A program made the position numbers and the translations under genes. Of a stretch of DNA of 61,789 nucleotides, positions 15,393 to 60,092 are shown piece after piece. The DNA is taken from the NCBI GenBank assembly GCA_048213135.1, contig PS015055.1, positions 102,027 through 163,815 on the forward strand. The letters run 5' to 3'. Source of the DNA: Reclinomonas americana ATCC 50394. Taxonomy: Eukaryota. The notes beneath the pieces were generated by a model. That model made no database searches. It had not been told where the DNA came from and saw nothing but the letters and a program-made list of their open reading frames with translations. The first letter of the stretch is position 1, and every line of letters begins with the position of its first letter.

Positions 15393-15707
15393 CTCACACA
15401 CACACTCACTCACTCACTCACTCACTCTCACACACTCATTCACTCACTCACTCACTCACTCACTCGCTCACTCTCCCCCTCCCTCTCTCCCTCTCCTTCT
15501 CCCTCTCTCCCTCCTCTCTCTCTCTCACCCTACTGGAAAGAGTCGCCGACTAAGTGAGGCCAAGGCCGGCACCACTTGCTGCCTTTCATGCATGTCCTGC
15601 AGTCGCGTGTATCGTATTCCATCGCCTGCAGCCACCGACGTTGCAGTGTGCAAGCAACGTCGCGAGAGAAGCAGCAGGCCGCACGAGGAAACTCGTCGAA
15701 GGAGCAT
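13248..15707 (-). CDS. GNAT N-acetyltransferase, NAA60-like, with a putative N-terminal mitochondrial presequence
   Basis: Spliced protein reads MLLRRVSS...RRLFPVG|YPPGVF...VVGFVLTR...AYVMMLGVDQPFRRHGI|SSKLM...KVIYLHTEKRNEAAVRFYERLGF..HR|FYYFIR...YLGDGRP. This resembles NAA60 (FPIEY, YILSLGV, IYLHV, FYE, YY, YINGG), and the protein has a hydrophobic C-terminal tail. Confidence 0.8.
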
Positions 15708-15786
15708 TGCAAACACAGAAAAAGGAGAGTAGGACAGAGAAGTGTCCTGTATATCGCGACTGCGAGTTTCTCCGAGTGAGCGAAGC

Positions 15787-18700
15787 ATGGACGCGGCAAC
15801 AGGAGGCGGTGCGTGTGTGCACACCTCTCTCTCCCTCACTCACCCTTTCACTCACACTCACTCTCTCTGTTGTGTGTTTATCATTTTTCGATATCGTTGA
15901 CAGTTGCGCGCGCCTCTCCCTCCCCGCCTGTATCGCCTCCGTCGCCGACTTTGGACGTGTCTGTGCGACAATGGCGACTGCGACCGCTCTCGCCACACAC
16001 ACCTGCCTCGTCGCCTCCTGCTGGCCATGGAGCGCCGAACAATCATCAGCACTCGTCTGGTGAGGAAGACGACGACGACGATGAGTCATCCTCCTCGTCG
16101 CCGGGCATCCGCGAGGAGTACCGTGGAGCGCGTGCTGGTAAGGACGTGCTTACGCCTCCGCGACCGGTGTCGTCGTCCAAGTCGAATCAGCGACTGGCGC
16201 GGCGACTGGCGGCGCTCATGCCGCGACCACTGCGTCCGCCGAGCTCGCCCGCCGCCTATCAGAACAAGAGAGGAGGCGGGTCGCCTGTGCCGGCGGTGGA
16301 GGCCGATGCAGTGTCGCTGGGCTTGGGTAGTGATGCCAGCTTGGCGCCTGTCGTGGCTCCGTTTCCGGGCATCCGACCGGCGACGGTCTTGCACTGGGAT
16401 TTGGGAGACGAGAACGGCGAGGAGGGCGAAGGAGCGGCAGTGGAGGATGTCGTAATGCGGTCGCCGCCGCGTGCTGCTGGGGTGGCGGTGGGCGCGGCGA
16501 AGCACTCGGACAGTGAGGTGTTGTGGCGTCGTGTGTTGGCTGCTTTCGGAGTGCGGCAGCGGCACAAGCAAGACACGGCGGCGGCGGTGCTTGTGGTGGT
16601 GCATTTGGCCATTATGTGGGCGCTGTTCATTATTGCTGTGTACCTGCTGGCACGCCCCACAGTCGCCTATCAGACGCTGCAGGTCACCGGTGAGTTTGGT
16701 TGACGGAATCGGTTTTCTTGTGAGGAATGCTGAGTGGCGTGCGTTGCAGGCTCGGCGGCGTTGCCGCAGACCACCATCATAGAGACGGTATCGATCACGT
16801 CAACACAAGCGGGACGTGCCGCCGAGGTTGTTATTGCCTCGCCGACGCAAGCATCGCTGGGGTTCGACGGAGGTGGCGTGGCGCGTGGTACGGGGTTTCG
16901 GGTCGGCGCCGACAACGCCACCACACTCTCCATCTCCCTTGCCACTGCTCCGCTGCTGCAACTGAAGCCGCGCGCATCATTCAACGCCTTGTCGCTTCCA
17001 CTAGTGTCGCGGAGGTTTGTTGCGAGCCTGCTTACGCGCGCGCTTGATGCGTGAGCATCCACACTTAAATATCGCCTTTCCGCAGACTGCTCCAGCAGGA
17101 CACCTCCGAATCATCGTTCCACATCCTTACAAACTCTGTACTCCTCGGTAACTCCACCTCGAGTGACGTGTACATGACGCGCCTGGAGTCCACGACTGGA
17201 ACTGCCGGACGACTCATCTTGGCTGGACAGTCGGTGCCGGTGAGTCAGTGGTCGACCACGTGCGCAACCCCGTGCATCTGCTCACCTGCCCGCGTCGTGT
17301 ACACAGAGCACCACCGCCGCGACTGGAGGCCGCATACTGCTGGTTGCGGGCGCCGGCAATCCTGGCGGCGACGTCGCCATTCAAGGAGGCTCAGGTGTGC
17401 AGCCGGGCCTGTGTGTGGTGGGCTGTTGTCGAGGCTGATTGTGACAAAAATAATGTTGTCGAGCAGCGCAAACGTCTTCCACGGGCGGCAACGTATTCAT
17501 CGCGGCCGGCAACGCAGGAGAGGCTCCCAACTCATCGGGCCTCGTGCAAGTACACGGCACCAAGTTGCAGATCCGACCGCCGGGCAGGACCAACGAGAGC
17601 GGTGGCAACGGCGAAATTCAGATCGGCACACGTGCAGACCTCGGTGATGTTGCGTGATTAGAGGGCAGTTCTCGGTCAGCGCCGCCTCTCACAGCTCTGA
17701 CATCCTGTCATGCACTGCAGTGGATTACCTTGCGAGCGGATCCGCTTGCGTTCACGCTTCTTGACACGCTGTCGCGCACTATTGTTCGATTTCCCGTCAC
17801 TGGTCCATTCGACTTTGACCGTGAACTGTCGGTGAGGACGCGGCTCGGAGTCACCTCGTCAGCGCCCGGTGGAGCCGCTCTCGTGTACGCCACTTCAAGC
17901 GGTGGCGGTTGCGTCTATTCTTTCCATACATCGTGAGGTGGGCCACGCTGGTGCTTATCAATCCGTGGCACACAGATGGACTCGCACGCATGGTGCTGTC
18001 GGTCGACTCCAACAGTGTGGAGCTGGTTCGTGAGCCTTTGTGAGAGGTTGCTTGATCGCGCATTCTCTTATTGCTTGTTGTGCTGTTTCCTGCGCAGCGG
18101 GTTAGCCAGAGCGCGACAACGGACACCGTCCTGTCCACCTCCAGCTCTAATCTTCGTGTCGTACCGAAGACTGGCTTCTCGACCGTGGTCGACAGCCCAC
18201 TTTTCGTCACTCAGTCTGCGTCGGTGACCGGTCTTGTGACTGGCGGCAGCTTCACTACAGCCGGCACGGCGTCGGTCGCTGGTCTTATTACTGGAGGCAG
18301 CGTGACGACGACCGGCAGCGTGCAGTCGGGCACAGTGAGCTCGTCTGGTTTGATTAGCGGCGGCAGCGTCACGACGGTCGGTAGCATGCAATCTGGCACA
18401 GTGAGCTCATCTGGTTTGATCAGTGGCGGCAGCGTCACGACGGTTGGCTCCGTTCAGTCAGGCACTGTCAGCTCGTCTGGCTTNNNNNNNNNNNNNNNNN
18501 NNNNNNNNNNNNNNNNNNNNNNNNNNNNNNNNNNNNNNNNNNNNNNNNNNNNNNNNNNNNNNNNNNNNNNNNNNNNNNNNNNNNNNNNNNNNNNNNNNNN
18601 NNNNNNNNNNNNNNNNNNNNNNNNNNNNNNNNNNNNNNNNNNNNNNNNNNNNNNNNNNNNNNNNNNNNNNNNNNNNNNNNNNNNNNNNNNNNNNNNNNNN

Positions 18701-21700
18701 NNNNNNNNNNNNNNNNNNNNNNNNNNNNNNNNNNNNNNNNNNNNNNNNNNNNNNNNNNNNNNNNNNNNNNNNNNNNNNNNNNNNNNNNNNNNNNNNNNNN
18801 NNNNNNNNNNNNNNNNNNNNNNNNNNNNNNNNNNNNNNNNNGATCAGCGGTGGCAGTGTGACGACGGTTGGCTCTGTGCAGTCTGGCACTGTGAGCTCGT
18901 CTGGCTTGATCAGCGGCGGCAGTGTGACCACGGTCGGCAGCGTGCAGTCTGGCACTGTATCTTCAAGTGGCTTGATCAGCGGTGGCAGTGTGACGACGGT
19001 TGGCAGCATGCAGTCGGGCACCGTCAGCTCATCTGGGTTGATCAGTGGCGGCAGTGTGACCACGGTCGGCAGCGTGCAGTCTGGCACTGTATCTTCAAGT
19101 GGCTTGATCAGCGGTGGCAGTGTGACGACTNNNNNNNNNNNNNNNNNNNNGTCGGCAGCGTGCAGTCTGGCACAGTGAGCTCTTCTGGCCTGATCAGCGG
19201 TGGCAGTGTGACGACGGTTGGCAGCATGCAATCCGGTACTGTTAGCTCTTCCGGGCTGATCAGTGGCGGCAGTGTGACCACGGTCGGCAGCGTGCAGTCT
19301 GGGACTGTATCTTCTAGCGGCCTGATCAGTGGCGGCAGCGTCACGACAGCCGGCTCGATCGAGAGTCTGACGTTGAGTTCAAGTGGCTTGATCAGCGGTG
19401 GAAGTGTAACTACGGTCGGCAGCGTGCAATCTGGCACTGTTAGTTCGAGTGGCCTGATCAGCGGCGGCAGCGTGACGACGGTTGGAAGTATGCAGTCGGG
19501 CACTGTCAGCTCGTCTGGTTTGATCAGCGGCGGAAGTGTGACGACGGTCGGTAGTGTGCAGTCTGGCACGGTCTCGTCCAGTGGCCTAATCAGCGGCGGC
19601 AGCGTCACGACAGCCGGTTCGATCGAGAGTCTGACTTTGAGCTCATCTGGGCTGATCAGCGGTGGCAGTGTGACCACGGTCGGCAGCGTGCAGTCTGGCA
19701 CTGTTAGCTCGTCTGGTTTGATCAGTGGCGGTAGTGTGACGACGGTCGGTAGTCTGCAGTCTGGCACTGTCAGCTCTTCCGGGTTGATCAGCGGCGGCAG
19801 TGTGACGACGGTTGGCAGCATGCAGTCCGGCACTGTGAGCTCAAGTGGTTTGATCAGTGGTGGAAGTGTGACGACAGCCGGTTCGATCGAGAGCCTGACT
19901 TTGAGCTCTTCCGGGTTGATCAGCGGTGGCAGTGTGACCACGGTCGGCAGCGTGCAGTCTGGCACTGTGTCTTCAAGTGGCTTGATCAGCGGTGGAAGTG
20001 TAACTACGGTCGGTAGCATGCAATCTGGCACTGTTAGTTCGAGTGGCCTGATCAGCGGCGGCAGCGTGACGACGGTTGGAAGTATGCAGTCCGGCACTGT
20101 GAGCTCGTCTGGTTTGATCAGTGGCGGCAGCGTCACGACAGCCGGCTCGATCGAGAGTCTGACGTTGAGCTCAAGTGGCTTAATCAGCGGTGGAAGTGTA
20201 ACTACGGTCGGCAGCATGCAATCTGGCACTATTAGTTCGAGTGGCCTGATCAGCGGCGGCAGCGTGACGACGGTTGGAAGTCTGCAGTCGGGCACTGTTA
20301 GCTCATCTGGGTTGATCAGCGGCGGCAGCGTCACGACAGCCGGTTCGATCGAGAGTCTGACGTTGAGCTCAAGTGGCTTGATCAGTGGCGGCAGTGTGAC
20401 GACGGTCGGTAGTGTGCAGTCGGGCACTATTAGTTCCAGTGGCTTGATCAGCGGCGGAAGTGTGACGACGGTTGGCAGTATGCAGGCTGGCACTGTATCT
20501 TCCAGCGGCCTGATCAGTGGCGGTAGCGTCACGACAGCCGGTACGATTGAGAGTCTGACTTTGAGCTCATCTGGCTTGATCAGCGGCGGTAGTGTGACGA
20601 CTGTTGGCAGCATGCAATCTGGCACTGTCAGCTCGTCTGGGCTGATCAGCGGTGGCAGTGTGACCACGGTCGGTNNNNNNNNNNNNNNNNNNNNNNNNNN
20701 NNNNNNNNNNNNNNNNNNNNNNNNNNNNNNNNNNNNNNNNNNNNNNNNNNNNNNNNNNNNNNNNNNNNNNNNNNNNNNNNNNNNNNNNNNNNNNNNNNNN
20801 NNNNNNNNNNNNNNNNNNNNNNNNNNNNNNNNNNNNNNNNNNNNNNNNNNNNNNNNNNNNNNNNNNNNNNNNNNNNNNNNNNNNNNNNNNNNNNNNNNNN
20901 NNNNNNNNNNNNNNNNNNNNNNNNNNNNNNNNNNNNNNNNNNNNNNNNNNNNNNNNNNNNNNNNNNNNNNNNNNNNNNNNNNNNNNNNNNNNNNNNNNNN
21001 NNNNNNNNNNNNNNNNNNNNNNNNNNNNNNNNNNNNNNNNNNNNNNNNNNNNNNNNNNNNNNNNNNNNNNNNNNNNNNNNNNNNNNNNNNNNNNNNNNNN
21101 NNNNNNNNNNNNNNNNNNNNNNNNNNNNNNNNNNNNNNNNNNNNNNNNNNNNNNNNNNNNNNNNNNNNNNNNNNNNNNNNNNNNNNNNNNNNNNNNNNNN
21201 NNNNNNNNNNNNNNNNNNNNNNNNNNNNNNNNNNNNNNNNNNNNNNNNNNNNNNNNNNNNNNNNNNNNNNNNNNNNNNNNNNNNNNNNNNNNNNNNNGTT
21301 GAGCTCAAGTGGCCTGATCAGCGGCGGGAGCGTGACGACTGTCGGCAGTCTTCAGTCGGGTACCATCAGTTCAAGTGGTTTGATCAGTGGCGGCAGTGTC
21401 ACGACGGTTGGCAGCATGCAGTCTGGCACTGTGTCTTCGAGTGGCCTGATCAGCGGCGGCAGTGTCACGACGGTTGGCAGCATGCAGTCTGGCACTGTGT
21501 CTTCGAGTGGCCTGATCAGCGGCGGGAGTGTGACGACGGTTGGCAGCATGCAATCTGGCACTGTTAGCTCATCTGGGTTGATCAGCGGCGGCAGTGTCAC
21601 GACAGCCGGTTCGATCGAGAGTCTGACGTTGAGCTCGAGTGGCTTGATCAGCGGTGGCAGCGTGACGACGGTCGGCAGTCTTCAGTCGGGCACCATCAGT

Positions 21701-22889
21701 TCATCCGGTCTGATCAGCGGCGGCAGTATCACGACAGCCGGCTCGATTGAGATGGTTTCTGTGAGCACCAGTGGCCTCATTAGCGGTGGTAGCATCACGA
21801 CAGCCGGCACAATTGAGAGTCTGACAGTGAGCTCCAGCGGCCTCATCAGTGGCGGCAGCATCACGACGGCGGGCTCGATTGAGAGTCTCACATTGAGCTC
21901 GAGTGGCCTCATTAGCGGCGGCAGTGTGACGACGGTCGGCAGCCTGCAGTCTGGCACTATCAGCTCAAGTGGCCTGGTCAGTGGTGGTAGCCTGTCGTCG
22001 GCGGGCACCATTGTGTCGTCGAACTTGGTGGGTGCACAGCGTCTGCAGCTGGCCTCGGATGACACTGACCGCACAATGGAGATTTCGTCGGGATTCGCGC
22101 TGCTGCAGTACGTCGAAGGCAGCATGGCGGCAAATGACAGGGTTTGTTCTCTTCTGCTGTTTCTTCTGCGTTGGAGAAAGAAAGCTGACGATGTGTCGTG
22201 TGTGTGTGTTTGGCGACACACAGCTGTATCTCCTCTCCGGGCACGGCGCGTACTCGGAGATCACGCTCAACACGGTTTCGTGACCTCGTCCACCCACAGA
22301 CAACCTGCTGCGCCAATCTTTTCTCACCCCTTGGAGTGTGCGTGTACAATGCAGTCTCCAAGTTCCATGCCGTCGGATGCCGCTCTGAAAACCAATGTGA
22401 AACGCATCGAGGGAGCCCTCGAATCGACGCTGCGTCTGACCGGGCGCACATTCACCTGGAATGAGGTCCGCCATAGTTAGTGTCGTTCCATCAGCATCCC
22501 GCAGCCCACTCACGTTGGTTTGCAGGCCGCGGCATCCCTGGGCTTCGTGCCCGGCACCGAATCCCTCGGTTTCGTCGCACAGGAAATCGAAGAGCACTTG
22601 CCTCTCCTCGTGGAGAGCCGAAGTCGTCCCAATGGACTGGTGAGAACATGAGACAAGCATATCGCATACGCTCTTGGCGTGACACTCACAACTCCTCCTT
22701 GCGCAGACTGTGAAGCAGGTCGCCTACGCCCAACTGGTAGCTGTGCTAGTGGAGGCCATCAAAGAGCAGCAAGTGATCATTGACGACCTACGCAGCCGCC
22801 TGCAGGAGCGCGAGCGCGCAGAATCGTCGATCCTCGATCGACTGACCACAATAGAGCAAGCGCTACGTGCGCTCCGCGAACCGCTCTGA
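15787..22889 (+). CDS. Single-pass membrane protein with a long 22-aa Gly/Ser/Thr repeat shaft and a C-terminal Peptidase_S74 (intramolecular chaperone) domain plus coiled coil
   Basis: ATG 15787 splices in frame to ORF 15813..16703, which has TM AAVLVVVHLAIMWALFIIAVYLLA. The repeat exon spans ~18098-22141. The C-terminus reads PSDAALKTNVKRIEGALESTLRLTGRTFTWNE|...LGFVAQEIEEHLPLLV...|TVKQVAYAQLVAVLVEAIKEQQVIIDDLRSRL, the classic S74 signature. Stop TGA at 22887-22889. Confidence 0.85.
18215..22010 (+). repeat. Coding tandem repeat, 66-bp / 22-aa unit SSSGLISGGSVTTVGS(V/M/L)QSGTV with a variant half TTAGSIESLTL
   Basis: Directly visible. More than 35 sequenced units are interrupted by three gaps, and units differ mostly at synonymous positions. 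Confidence 0.95.
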
Positions 22890-52061: not shown

Positions 52062-52229
52062 CCACTGTTGATCGCTGGCTGCAGGCCGCATCAGTCGCGG
52101 TCCATCGACTTGCTGCCATGAGGGGCAACACACGCCGATATCGAGATATCGCTCGCGACGACGAACGAAAATCCGCAGATTCTCTCCAGTTTTTCACCAA
52201 GTGAGTGAAAAGCGAAAGAGCGTGAGAGC

Positions 52230-54078
52230 ATGTCTGTGCACGGCCACTGTGATGTTGGATTTGCGCCCGTGCGCGCTGTGATGGAGGAGCTGCTGAGCAG
52301 TGGCACAGATGTGATTGCTCGTGTCCGCTGTCTGAGTTGCTCTGTTTTCTTCTCACTGTGGATGCAGTGTGGACTCGCCGTGTGTGTGATGCAACACGGG
52401 AAAGTCGTGCTCGACTTGTGGGGCGGTCACACCGACGAGGCAAAGGAGCGTGAGTGGAGCGAGGACACGATTGTGAATGTGTTCTCCACTGGCAAGGTGA
52501 GAGAGAGAGAGAGAGGAGAAGAGGAAAGGGGGAAACAGGTACATGACGTCAGTGCTGCATTTCTCCGCTTTTGCACTTTTCTCACTCTCCGTCTTTCCTC
52601 TGTCGCTCTCGTTTGTGTGCACACTTTGCGCTGTGTGGCCGCACGCAGCGCGTCGTGGAATGAGTGCAGACGAGTGCATTGGTGTCGTATGTACGAATCG
52701 TGATCCGCAACGAAGCAATCAACCTTTTCTGAACACAGGGCGTCACTGCACTCCTTGCGGGGATCATGATGGACAAGGACTACTTGTCGTTTGACACGCC
52801 AGTGGAGGAGCTGTGGCCCGAGTATTGCCGCGTGAGTCGCCTCTAACGTGGACAAGCCTTTCTTGCTACGGAGCTCATTGTGATTGCAGAACGGCAAGGA
52901 AGGCACGCTCCTCCGCCACTTCCTCACGCATCGCTCGGGAAGTGCTGCGCTGGACAAGGTGCCGCCGGCTGGAGCCGCCTATGAGTGGGACAACTTGGTG
53001 CATTTGCTGGAGGAGTCGGTGAGAGATACGAGCGAGTGGGCTGCTGAGATGTGTCTTTCGAGGCCTAATATCCTTGCGACACCGCAGGAGGCGTGCTGGG
53101 AGCCGGGTAGCAAGCAGGGCTACCACGCGCTGACGTTCGGGCATCTCGTTGGCGAGATGCTCATTCGCGCCTACCATCGCCGCCATCCCGATCGCCCGCG
53201 TCCCACCTTCAGCGCACTGCTGGAGGAGTTCTTGGTGGCTCCACTCGGATGCACCGGCCAGATTTTCTGCGGAGTCCCCGAGTCGGAGATGGCGCGTGTT
53301 GCCGCCCTCACCCCCCTGGATCCGTGAGTCCACCCTACCCGCCTCCTTTTGTGTGACACCCTTTCCACGATTGACCAAAACCACGCAGGACCAAAATGCC
53401 GCCCGAGGTGGTCCACGACCCGTTGTTCCCCATGGTGGCCAAGCTGATGGATCCCACATCATTCACCTTCAAGGCCATCTACGGCTCGCTCAGTGATTTC
53501 ACTGATCCGCAAGCGCCCAACTCGTCGGCCTGGCGCAAGGCACCCATCCCGGCGGCCAACATGCACACGCATGCCCGCACTCTGGCGCGCCTGTACAGCC
53601 CATTCGCCAACAGTGGCGTTGATATTGGTTTGTGCTCTCATGCCTCCCTTTGTGGCTGCCGCTTACACGCAGCTGTGATGCAGGTGACGGAAACACGGGT
53701 GAGCGCATCGTGTCGGCAGAGACGCTGGAGACCATGTCGAGCGTGCTCACGGATTCTGATTCCGACGAGACACTGGTGTTCCCGGCATCGTTTTCCATGG
53801 GCTTTATGGCGCGTTGCCTCTTCAACTTTGCCATTCCCTACGAGGAGCACCTGTCGGCCTTTGGTCACAACGGCATGGGTAAGTCACTCTGGCAAACACT
53901 GTTCACTTGCAAGAGTGACTGAGCCGGTGGCGCAGGTGGCTCTATTGCCTTTGCGGAACCGGAGCACCACCTCAGCTGCGCGTTTGTCATGAACCGCATG
54001 AACGGCTTTGGCGGCACTCGCAGCACCCAGGCGCGCATTCTGCAAGCTGTTTACGACTCGCTGAAGTCGAGCGAGTGA
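52230..54078 (+). CDS. Beta-lactamase-family serine hydrolase (family VIII esterase type), copy 1, 7 introns
   Basis: Motifs VVLDLWGG, NVFSTGK (SxxK), FLTHRSG, WEPGSKQGYHALTFG and FGHNGMGGSIAFAEPE. Confidence 0.9.
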
Positions 54079-54202
54079 GTGCTGGAGCAGAGCGGAGAGA
54101 GAATGGCAAGGCAGAAGGTTACAATGAGTGAATGTACGTACCACTTGCAAGTCCTCCAGTCCTCCTCCTTGTTGTTTTCGTTATTGTCACTGAAGAGAGA
54201 GC

Positions 54203-56372
<2,170 letters not shown>

Positions 56373-56611
56373 CAGGCGGAGGAGGAAGAGTTGTCTCGAT
56401 CAATTGCAAGTCAGTGTATATAACTCAGTGAAGGATCGAGGCAGTTTGTGTTGCACAACTTGCACAGAACCATGTGGTGCGGTAGATTTGGGTTCTGTAT
56501 CTTGCGTGCGGCGTTGAGAGGAAGAGAGTTGGTGCTGCGATAGGACAACGAATGCCCTGCTGGTTGCCATTGCAAGGAAGCACTCCCTTACGCAACACCC
56601 TTTGTGTGCCT

Positions 56612-57847
<1,236 letters not shown>

Positions 57848-58098
57848 CGATACACCACCGATAAAAAATATTCCGATAGACGGACATGAGAACGTTTCGT
57901 GCTTGGTATGAACCCTCCGTTTACCATATCTCGATAACCCTCCATTTACCATATTTCGATAATATGACAAATGCCCACAAGCCCTTGTCGCACACCGCCA
58001 GATGCTTGCGGCACGGAAGCAGCGAAGATGCATCGACGTCGAAGCGCGTGGACAAGTCCTTCACTTGATTGTTTCAGTTGTCGAGGGGAGAGCAGGGC

Positions 58099-58381
58099 AT
58101 GTCTGTATACGTACACGGCCACTGTGATGCTGCGTTTGCGCCAGTGCGCGCTGTGATGGAGGAGCTGCTGAGCAGTGGGAAAGAGGTGATTGATTGTTGT
58201 TCTGCTCACTCACTCACTCAGTCATACATGAGCTTGTCTCACTGTGGAGGCAGTGTGGACTCGCCGTGTGTGTGATGCAACACGGGAAAGTGATGCTCGA
58301 CTTGTGGGGTGGTCATACGGACGCGACGAAGGAGCAGGGGTGGAGTGAAGACACGATTGTGAATGTGTTTTCCACTGGCAA

Positions 58382-58480
<99 letters not shown>

Positions 58481-60092
58481 TAGTAGTACGTAGTACGTAC
58501 GTACGTAGTACGTACGTACGTAGTACGTACGTACGNNNNNNNNNNNNNNNNNNNNGAGAGAGAGAGAGATGGAGGAGAGTCTGCAGGTTGTTCGTATTTT
58601 TCCGACGTCGCTCATTTCCTTCCGTCACTCGTTCTCTGCCTCCCGTCAGTCGCTTTCTTTCATGTGCATCCGTTGCATTCGGAGCACACGAGTGCACAAT
58701 GTTCTAGACAGTCAAGTTTTATTCTGAATGCATGCGCAGGGTTTGACTGCAATCCTTGCCGGGATCATGGTCGACAAGGGCTACTTGTCGTTCGACACGC
58801 CAGTGGAGGAGCTGTGGCCCGAGTACTGCCGCGTGAGTCGCCTCTGTCGTGGACAAGCCTTTCTTGCTGCGAAGCTCACTGTGAATGCAGAACGGCAAGG
58901 AAGGCACGCTCTTCCGCCACTTACTCACGCATCGCTCCGGAAGTGCTGCGCTCGACAAGCCACCAGCACCCGGAATCGTCTACGATTGGGACGCTCTCGT
59001 GCATTTGCTGGAGGAGTCGGTGAGTGCATCATTGATGCGCATGCTGCAAAGTTGTGTCGTCATCTACCCGTGAATGCGCCGCAGGAGGCATGTTGGGAAC
59101 CCGGCAGCAAGCAGGGATATCACGCAGTGACACTGGGACATCTCGTGGGCGAGATGCTCATTCGCGCCTACCATCGCCGCCATCCCGATCGCCCCCGTCC
59201 CACATTCAGCGCACTGCTGGAGGAGTTCTTGGTAGCTCCACTCGGATGCACCGGCCAGATATTCTGTGGAGTCCCCGAGTCGGAGATGGCGCGCATCGCC
59301 ACCCTCATCCCCTTGGATCCGTGAGTCGTCCGTGGCAGCGTGCCCAAGTCGTCTGTAAAAAGCACTCACACTGGTGGCAGAGCCGACGTGCCAGCCGATG
59401 TGGCCATCGATCCAGTGTTCCCCATGTTGGCCAAGCTCTACGATCCCACATCCTTCACCATCAAGGCAATCTACGGCAGCCTCCCCGACCTCGCCAACCC
59501 GCAGGTGCGAAACACGCCGGAGTGGCGCAAGGCCAGTATTCCCTCGGTCAACATGCACACACACGCTCGTGGCCTGGCGCGCCTGTACAGCCCGTGTGCG
59601 AATGGTGGTGTTGATGTTGGTTCGTCCTTCGCCTGCCTGCTCGATCCTTTTTTTGGTGACTGCAGCTTATATACAGCGACAGGTGACGGAAACACGGGCG
59701 AGCGCGTCGTGTCGGCGGAGACACTGGAGGTCATGACCAGTGAGCACTCGGAGGCGGTGTCGGACGAGACACTGGTGTTCTCGGCATCGTTCTCCATGGG
59801 CTTCATGTTGAAGAATCTGTTCAATGGTGGCGTCTCATACGCAGAGCATGCGCGTGTGTTTGGCCACAACGGAACAGGTGAGTGTGCTTGGGCGACGACG
59901 ACTGCATTGCCAGTGACTTGACCTGAACACGCCACATGTACAGGCGGCTCCGTGGCCTTTGCGGATCCAGAACACCACATCAGCTGTGCATACGTAATGA
60001 ACCGAATGAATGGACTCGGCGGCGCTCGCAGCTGCCCCGCACGCATTGTGCAGGCTGTCTACGATTCGCTGAAGACGAGTGACTCCCAATGA
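58099..60092 (+). CDS. Beta-lactamase-family serine hydrolase, copy 3
   Basis: Motifs STGK, LLTHRSG, GYHAVTLG and FGHNGTGG, with the same 7 intron positions as copy 1. Confidence 0.9.

What the first reader, a model, noticed from the sequence alone, without database searches (positions are those of the whole stretch)
15787..22889. Intron-containing eukaryotic gene for a membrane-anchored, phage-fibre-like protein with a self-cleaving S74 chaperone
Seen: a disordered N-terminus, one TM helix, GGxVxIxAG-type segments, over 800 aa of beta-strand-like repeats, then an S74 domain and coiled coil, with about 11 spliceosomal introns. Established: S74/ICA domains trimerise and fold triple beta-helical phage tail spikes, then autocleave through a Ser-Lys dyad; the known eukaryotic example is MYRF. 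Here SDAALK keeps the Ser and Lys but lacks the usual Arg of SDxRLK. Inference: a domesticated viral or bacterial fibre forming a long trimeric cell-surface filament (adhesion, prey capture, flagellar hair or extrusome).
Basis: partly seen in the sequence, partly recalled or inferred. Interest (0 to 1): 0.75.

Follow-up and report, generated by a model that had tools for sequence, protein, structure and literature searches.

The report
Protist fibre with phage self-cleaving chaperone
An intron-split nuclear gene of a single-celled eukaryote carries a membrane anchor, about 50 short repeats and the self-cleaving folding domain of phage tail fibres; it is one of roughly two dozen such genes in the genome and likely makes a three-chained surface fibre that is predicted to be cut at both ends as it matures.

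Summary
Confirmed. A 13-exon model (12 GT-AG introns) gives a type II membrane protein of about 2,100 aa: disordered tail, TM helix, a 300-aa juxtamembrane module, about 50 22-aa Gly/Ser/Thr repeats, a short tip, Pfam S74 (exon 11, 27.7 bits, cut-off 22) and a coiled coil. The second haplotype keeps every splice site; pN/pS is about 0.13. Neighbours are ordinary host genes. S74 matches lie on 45 non-bacterial contigs, mostly in pairs. Not seen in earlier notes: nine paralogues share the TM (His in 9 of 9) and the module; 8 of 9 carry R-x-L/I-L/F in a loop about 100 aa past the TM, a site-1-protease-type motif, and the genome encodes that protease. The fibre may therefore be cut from its anchor as well as from its chaperone. 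Tips vary, and two members end without S74, as in Bdellovibrio MAT adhesins. The missing Arg in SDAALK matters little. No RNA, structure or donor was obtained. The scan noted this family before on other pieces of this genome and in another protist genome; my searches found no paper on it.

The parts
15787..15808 (+). Exon 1, start ATG
   Evidence: kept in the second haplotype
15904..16689 (+). Exon 2: Pro/Ser/acidic disordered N-terminal tail, basic stretch, TM helix
   Evidence: no N-glycosylation sequon before the TM, four after it
16578..16652 (+). TM helix aa 233-257 with an intramembrane His (16602-16604) followed five residues later by Trp; His present in 9 of 9 family members examined
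16750..17014 (+). Exon 3: first beta-rich part of the juxtamembrane module
   Evidence: weak matches to paralogues on C24/C173 and C141/C516; alignment
17010..17092 (+). RRLL-QQ motif (aa 357-362), split by phase-2 intron 3; predicted site-1 protease site
   Evidence: R-x-[LI]-[LF] at the same place in 8 of 9 members
17086..18025 (+). Exons 4-8 (17086-17239, 17307-17394, 17467-17648, 17721-17907, 17976-18025): conserved juxtamembrane module with GGxxxxxAG segments
   Evidence: exons 6 and 7 abut exactly on a single exon of paralogues C13 and C24; 19 matches in the genome
18098..22141 (+). Exon 9: neck, repeat shaft and start of the tip; 1,013 aa sequenced, three N gaps (18484-18841, 19131-19150, 20675-21297)
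18218..21981 (+). 66-nt (22-aa) tandem repeat, consensus GLISGGSVTTVGSMQSGTVSSS; 40 units sequenced, about 50-55 with the gaps
   Evidence: 37 of 37 core units differ in DNA while only 12 protein variants occur
22224..22274 (+). Exon 10: 17 aa of the tip
   Evidence: a similar short exon precedes S74 in paralogue C139
22355..22465 (+). Exon 11: predicted P|S autocleavage site and SDAALK Ser-Lys motif at 22373, first half of S74
   Evidence: PF13884 27.7 bits
22526..22639 (+). Exon 12: second half of S74 (GFVAQE)
   Evidence: PF13884 profile 40-57, E 0.18; same intron positions in paralogues C18, C139, C640
22707..22889 (+). Exon 13: C-terminal coiled coil of the chaperone, stop codon

Best explanation
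This is an intron-split host gene under purifying selection that likely encodes the precursor of a long three-chained beta fibre, predicted to be folded by its C-terminal S74 chaperone and then cut at both ends. Shown by sequence and calls: the exon structure, TM, juxtamembrane module, repeat shaft, S74 with its Ser and Lys, a family of roughly two dozen S74 genes, and the conserved RxL motif. Inferred steps: (1) the chain enters the ER as a type II protein, tail in the cytosol; (2) three S74 coiled coils meet and zip the shaft into a triple beta fibre from the far end, as in phage spikes; (3) S74 cuts itself off at P|SDAALK and exposes a tip of about 70 aa; (4) Golgi site-1 protease cuts after RRLL, which frees the fibre or leaves it held non-covalently on the membrane stub; (5) the mature, uncharged, possibly O-glycosylated fibre (my estimate 40-110 nm, depending on the fold) is displayed outside the cell. 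The role I favour is adhesion to bacterial prey or surfaces, by a repertoire with a constant base and varied shafts and tips. Odds: trimeric fibre with autocleavage about 0.75, cleavage at RRLL about 0.55, adhesion as main role about 0.45.
For: Gene model and Pfam hit. Haplotype comparison: 31 synonymous changes in 688 sites, 11 non-synonymous in 1,820, ratio about 0.13; protein-identical repeats differ at 37-50% of synonymous sites. Basic residues before the TM and sequons only after it. Host neighbours: ABCA transporter, GNAT, gamma-tubulin complex subunit, SHMT. 61 S74 matches in the assembly, 4 on the two megabase bacterial contigs, the rest on 45 contigs. Paralogue C13 has TM, the same module, a fibre-like body and an S74 over 18 kb. 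Paralogue C54 has TM, module and nearly the same 22-aa repeat. The window's S74 groups with four host copies (SH-aLRT 99) that share its first S74 intron and have GGS-type repeats. RxL motif: Arg 8 of 8, Leu/Ile 8 of 8, following Gln 7 of 8 in an alignment of 29% mean identity; C23 and C162 carry two such motifs around a low-complexity spacer. MBTPS1 exons lie on C482. RRLL and RRIL are S1P motifs (PMC2685025, passages). The host S74 profile matches a phage long-tail-fibre chaperone (6f45) and MYRF (7dc3). Bdellovibrio MAT fibres have a conserved N-terminal beta domain, 13 S74 and 8 non-S74 tips, and act in prey recognition (PMC10769870, passages).
Against: No transcript or peptide evidence. 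The join across the first N gap is scaffolded in both haplotypes. The ninth member (C294/C301) lacks the strict motif and has only RATL there. Two further R-x-[LI]-[LF] strings (aa 400, 418) occur in the window's model, so the pattern alone is not rare; the eight motifs share ancestry and are not independent. The tip has no Pfam lectin or adhesin domain, which fits a structural fibre as well as an adhesin. Several S74 loci (C121/C12, C22/C761) show no fibre-like frame upstream, so not all S74 genes belong to this design. The organism's lineage and feeding were not established here.
Confidence: 0.5

Rival explanations
1. Same maturation, but the fibres are structural: secreted filaments of a lorica, its spines, a stalk, a cyst envelope or a surface hair coat, with shaft length setting filament length.
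For: Uncharged Ser/Thr/Gly shaft and small tip without a known binding domain; predicted release from the membrane; RXL motifs are noted as possible cleavage sites in diatom wall proteins (PMC9650480, passages); earlier scan notes call the organism a probable jakobid, and two jakobid genera have a lorica, one with spines (PMC4772810, passages).
Against: The lineage could not be confirmed; a structural coat does not obviously need varied tips; several jakobids have no lorica.
Confidence: 0.3
2. The fibre stays covalently anchored by its TM helix as a permanent surface filament or sensor; RRLL is not cut, and the cytosolic tail couples it to the cytoskeleton or to signalling.
For: TM His conserved in 9 of 9; long Pro-rich cytosolic tails in all members seen; one member lacks the strict motif.
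Against: The motif is the best conserved stretch of a loop of very variable length, and is doubled in two members; S1P is encoded.
Confidence: 0.12
3. The gene is a leftover of an integrated virus (polinton-like or giant virus fibre) rather than a working host gene, or serves as a decoy against such viruses.
Against: 12 introns, some shared with paralogues; purifying selection; host neighbours; no viral relative of the module in IMG/VR by pattern search; the RNA-polymerase beta matches were intron-split or bacterial.
Confidence: 0.05
4. The 5' exons and the repeat/S74 exons are two genes joined by scaffolding across a repeat gap.
For: N gaps early in the repeat in both haplotypes; C54 and C139 show that assemblies break in these repeats.
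Against: The same repeat lies on both sides of each gap; both haplotypes give the same order and flanks; C13 joins the same module to S74 with no gap seen in its fibre-like frames.
Confidence: 0.03

Closest known systems
Bdellovibrio bacteriovorus MAT (mosaic adhesive trimer) fibres, S74 subgroup, e.g. Bd3182 (PMC10769870; passages read)
   Same: Cellular, not viral; a family of about 20; conserved beta-rich N-terminal domain, long fibre, SDxxxK S74 end in some members and other tips in the rest.
   Different: Here eukaryotic and spliced, with a cytosolic tail and TM helix instead of a signal peptide, an RxL motif, and a different repeat. No homology outside S74 was tested or shown. It works like MAT by analogy and is not filed as a member.
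Phage and polinton-like-virus tail fibres with a C-terminal Peptidase_S74/ICA domain (PF13884; PDB 6f45, 3gud, 8jov; PMC12220804 passages)
   Same: Repeat shaft followed by a Ser-Lys chaperone and coiled coil at the C-terminus.
   Different: No capsid- or baseplate-binding N-terminus; membrane-inserted precursor; intron-rich host locus.
MYRF / Dictyostelium MrfA (PMC3742443 passages; PMC8326128 section 7; PDB 7dc3)
   Same: Eukaryotic nuclear gene, type II membrane protein, ICA domain with Ser and Lys five residues apart.
   Different: In MYRF the ICA is cytosolic, lies before the TM and frees a DNA-binding trimer. Here it lies at the far luminal C-terminus behind about 1,700 aa of fibre; no Pfam DNA-binding domain was hit in exon 2.
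Site-1 protease (SKI-1/MBTPS1) substrates with RRLL/RRIL-type sites (PMC2685025 passages) and diatom RXL proteins (PMC9650480 passages)
   Same: Luminal R-x-L/I-L/F motif in a loop of a membrane-bound precursor.
   Different: No cut is shown here; the substrate class (S74 fibre) was not found described for S1P in my searches.

Membership tests
Peptidase_S74 / ICA-bearing fibre | PF13884 match above the curated cut-off | tested here: met
   exon 11 alone 27.7 bits against 22; 35.4 bits across the intron
Peptidase_S74 / ICA-bearing fibre | Ser-Lys dyad, SDxxxK | tested here: met
   SDAALK in both haplotypes
Peptidase_S74 / ICA-bearing fibre | C-terminal position with a following coiled coil, behind a beta-rich shaft | tested here: met
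   coiled coil judged from sequence and weak coil-family hits
Peptidase_S74 / ICA-bearing fibre | Homotrimer with a triple beta-helix or similar shaft | tested here: inconclusive
   no usable model was obtained (see Tried and rejected)
Peptidase_S74 / ICA-bearing fibre | Autocleavage before the Ser | not testable with these tools
   needs expression or proteomics
Bdellovibrio MAT | Signal peptide followed by the conserved MAT N-terminal beta domain | tested here: not met
   230-aa disordered tail then a TM helix; the module found no database relative
Bdellovibrio MAT | Multigene family with S74 and non-S74 tips | tested here: met
   module with S74 in window, C13, C301/C294 and perhaps C162; other ends in C24 and C141
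Bdellovibrio MAT | Binding to prey surface glycans | not testable with these tools
   needs binding assays
MYRF/MrfA | Ndt80-type DNA-binding domain before a cytosolic ICA, TM after it | tested here: not met
   order is TM, fibre, ICA; no such Pfam hit in the 12 exon frames scanned
Endogenous viral element | Intron-poor gene among viral core genes | tested here: not met
   12 introns; Pfam hits among 105 flanking frames (of 250 found) were all cellular families
S1P substrate | Luminal R-x-hydrophobic-L/F motif and an S1P in the organism | tested here: met
S1P substrate | Demonstrated cleavage by S1P | not testable with these tools
   needs N-terminal sequencing or inhibitor test

The most novel reading that the evidence does not exclude
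A bacteria-eating protist has turned phage-type self-chaperoning fibres into a repertoire of about two dozen host surface fibres, built on a shared membrane base, matured by two cuts (host site-1 protease at the base, S74 at the tip) and fitted with swappable tips: a eukaryotic counterpart of the Bdellovibrio prey-recognition fibres that would make prey choice in flagellates testable gene by gene.
Probability: 0.3. Interest if true: 0.85.

Novelty: new variant of a known kind. Interest (0 to 1): 0.62.

Why it matters
In print, as far as five searches showed (open-access library only), the S74 chaperone in eukaryotic host genes is known from the MYRF transcription factors, and S74 fibres from phages, polinton-like viruses and predatory bacteria. 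A spliced, selected, expanded host family that uses it in its original fibre-building role, routed through the secretory pathway with a second host-protease site, would be a new way for a eukaryotic cell to build surface filaments. It would give molecular candidates for prey capture or for extracellular structures in flagellates, for which few proteins are known (my own knowledge). The parts are all known kinds and the family has been noted repeatedly by this scan, which limits the score.

Tried and rejected
RNA: no sequencing run was listed for 15700-18400, which is no evidence either way; read laying was therefore not used. Trimer prediction of the last 199 aa of exon 9, three copies, no alignment: no verdict, score 0.00. 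AlphaFold2 of the 110-aa module exon of paralogue C13 with a 5-row alignment: mean pLDDT 45.7, mostly strands; of a 200-aa S74 stretch of paralogue C159 without alignment: 52.8; both too weak, so no fold search was run. Relatives of the juxtamembrane module: none in the 5.8-billion set with exon 3 or the alignment, both limited to proteins up to 2,000 aa; none in viral or metagenome contigs by exact patterns; Atlas hits at 0.90-0.91 with low recognition, leads only. Donor: the S74 tree (88 rows: 17 host, the 70 best-scoring of 168 database domains, 1 from a bacterial contig; 110 columns) left 48 of 81 inner branches open; one host clade is not rejected (AU p 0.597) and not shown. The 10 best hits of the profile search carried no informative names; of those I read, many look like bacterial secreted proteins, which is a judgement by eye. 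Lineage: no eukaryotic SSU rRNA, mt-tmRNA or mitochondrial RNA polymerase match was found in the assembly, so the jakobid label of earlier notes is untested. NCLDV capsid search: no match, with no positive control. In one search the C141 row was in the wrong frame; the counts quoted come from the corrected. Rejected: the missing Arg as a sign of a dead enzyme; a MYRF orthologue; a bacterial contaminant. Supplements of the papers were not read.
Full report
Observation. The region 15787-22889 splices into 13 exons through 12 GT-AG introns of 60-95 nt. The model reads 706 aa without a stop up to the first N gap and 433 aa from the last gap to the stop. With the gaps at face value the protein is about 2,080 aa. 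Its order is: a Pro/Ser/acidic tail of about 230 aa, a TM helix (aa 233-257), a beta-rich module of about 300 aa with GGxxxxxAG segments, a 22-aa repeat (40 units sequenced), a tip of about 70 aa, S74 and a coiled coil. Pfam PF13884 matches exon 11 above its cut-off and exon 12 weakly, in the right order. Six of the 12 donors begin GTT, a class that earlier notes report as common in this genome (not checked by me beyond this gene).

The gene is real and selected. A second copy on contig C152 is 94-96% identical with the same flanks, so I read it as the other haplotype. It keeps all 12 splice dinucleotide pairs and has 43 repeats in one 983-codon frame without a stop. Outside the repeats the two copies differ at 31 of 688 synonymous and 11 of 1,820 non-synonymous sites (ratio about 0.13); introns differ at 21 of 861 positions. 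All 37 core repeat units differ in DNA though they encode only 12 peptides, and protein-identical units differ at 37-50% of synonymous sites. Exons 6 and 7 abut exactly on a single exon of two paralogues, and the introns inside S74 recur in paralogues. Pfam hits among 105 flanking frames (the longer ones of 250) were an ABCA transporter, a GNAT, a gamma-tubulin complex subunit, SHMT, an AAA-like ATPase and beta-lactamase-family proteins: a host chromosome, not a viral island. The weak point is that both haplotypes have an N gap after the first few repeats, so continuity is scaffolded, and no RNA run was listed.

The family. PF13884 gives 61 matches in the assembly. Four lie on C1 and C2, which carry a 16S rRNA and an intronless RNA-polymerase beta gene and are bacterial. 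The others lie on 45 contigs, mostly in near-identical pairs, so roughly two dozen genes (my estimate). Many follow very long Gly/Ser/Thr/Val-rich frames, over 20 kb in C18, C110, C159 and C595, but C121/C12 and C22/C761 show none. The juxtamembrane module gives 19 matches on 18 contigs, and exon 3 added C141/C516. I examined nine members: window, C13, C24, C54, C283, C23, C141, C162 and C294/C301. All nine have a disordered tail and a TM helix with a His followed five residues later by Trp or Tyr. The ends differ: S74 in the window, C13 and C301/C294, and 57 kb downstream in C162 (one gene not shown); a short beta-rich end in C24; a domain starting KNFSIDHP in C141, which has no Pfam match but resembles a frame on bacterial C1. 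C54 runs into a gap; I found no S74 within about 30 kb of C283 and C23 and did not locate their ends. The window's S74 groups with C18, C595, C139 and C640 (SH-aLRT 99).

The RxL motif. About 100 aa past the TM, in a loop of very variable length, eight members read RRLL (window, C23), RSLL (C24, C283), RRLF (C13, C141), RKLF (C54) or RRIL (C162), seven of them followed by Gln; mean identity of the aligned stretch is 29%. In six of the eight a phase-2 intron splits the motif. C23 and C162 have two motifs around a low-complexity spacer, like a propeptide. C294 has only RATL. RRLL and RRIL are site-1 protease recognition motifs (PMC2685025, passages), and exons of MBTPS1 lie on C482. Two other strings of the same pattern occur at aa 400 and 418 of the window's model, inside GGxxxxxAG strands, so position and conservation, not the pattern, carry the argument. 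Basic residues before the TM and four sequons only after it fit a luminal position. A word search of earlier notes found none that holds all of S74, fibre, RRLL and site protease cleavage.

The catalytic site. Ser and Lys are the strictly conserved dyad (PMC3742443, passages). In MYRF, S587A and K592A block cleavage, while R590A, by numbering the Arg of SDxR, does not block it fully; the assisting Arg of endoNF lies upstream in the stalk (PMC8326128, section 7). Among database hits 145 of 166 motifs have Arg at that place and 21 do not; among host copies 14 of 17 do. SDAALK is therefore probably active, perhaps less precise.

Mechanism. I infer a type II precursor whose S74 domains trimerise and fold the shaft, then cut themselves off, and whose base is cut by S1P in the Golgi. 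The repeat reads as four short strands of 5-6 aa with one inward hydrophobic residue each (by eye); for 50-55 units I estimate 40-110 nm from recalled strand spacings. No model confirmed the fold. The role is open. The family layout parallels Bdellovibrio MAT fibres (21 members, conserved N-terminal domain, 13 S74 and 8 other tips; PMC10769870, passages), so I favour adhesion to prey or surfaces. A structural role (lorica, spines, cyst, hairs) is the main rival, more so if the organism is a jakobid as earlier notes suggest; I could not confirm that.

Origin and novelty. S74 is very widespread (102,738 representatives at E 0.001) and common in polinton-like viruses (PMC12220804, passages). The tree resolves no donor, and one host origin is neither rejected nor shown. 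The module has no relative in the collections I could search, with the limits given above. Five literature searches (listings and abstract starts) showed no paper on host-encoded S74 fibres in protists. The scan itself has noted the family before: 21 notes hold the words, 8 were shown, 7 of them from this genome and 1 from another. Verdict: a new variant of a known kind; observation confirmed, interpretation partly supported, with the shared base, varied tips and predicted second cut as this report's additions.

Noticed in passing
G000 C141 about 56,000-56,500 (L063:6586-7133) and its pair C515: A family member ends in a KNFSIDHP-type domain instead of S74; no Pfam match, but 53% identical over 43 aa to a frame on bacterial contig C1. 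Possibly a second kind of fibre-end chaperone (recalled motif, not tested).
   Followed up: partly
G000 C121:103900-106597, C12:13043-15717, C761:896-3626, C22:69831: S74 domains in tandem pairs about 2.5 kb apart with no fibre-like frame upstream; they fall in a separate host clade (SH-aLRT 99). Small S74 proteins or micro-exon genes?
   Followed up: partly
G000 C162:25686-83220: Juxtamembrane module and S74 on the same strand 57 kb apart with fibre-like stretches and gaps between; possibly one giant gene.
   Followed up: partly
G000 C159 and C595 (L070, L072): A second group of TM-anchored S74 fibres with a different base (VGVGTSNP-like and GFSFxxDxDTG-like motifs); C159 also has RRLF and RQLQ strings around an acidic spacer.
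   Followed up: partly
window 31508-35561: SHMT gene pieces: two 93%-identical copies of the 3' part on the plus strand and the 5' part on the minus strand, between N gaps; probably an assembly artefact or local inversion.
   Followed up: no
window 52209-60079: Two or more beta-lactamase-family (PF00144) gene copies, 76% identical, with shorter repeats between them.
   Followed up: no
G000 C1 and C2: Megabase bacterial contigs (16S rRNA on C1, RNA polymerase beta on C2) with four S74 genes of their own; the one placed in the tree did not group with host copies.
   Followed up: partly
window 17015-22354 (introns 3, 6-10): Six of the 12 introns begin GTT rather than GTR.
   Followed up: no
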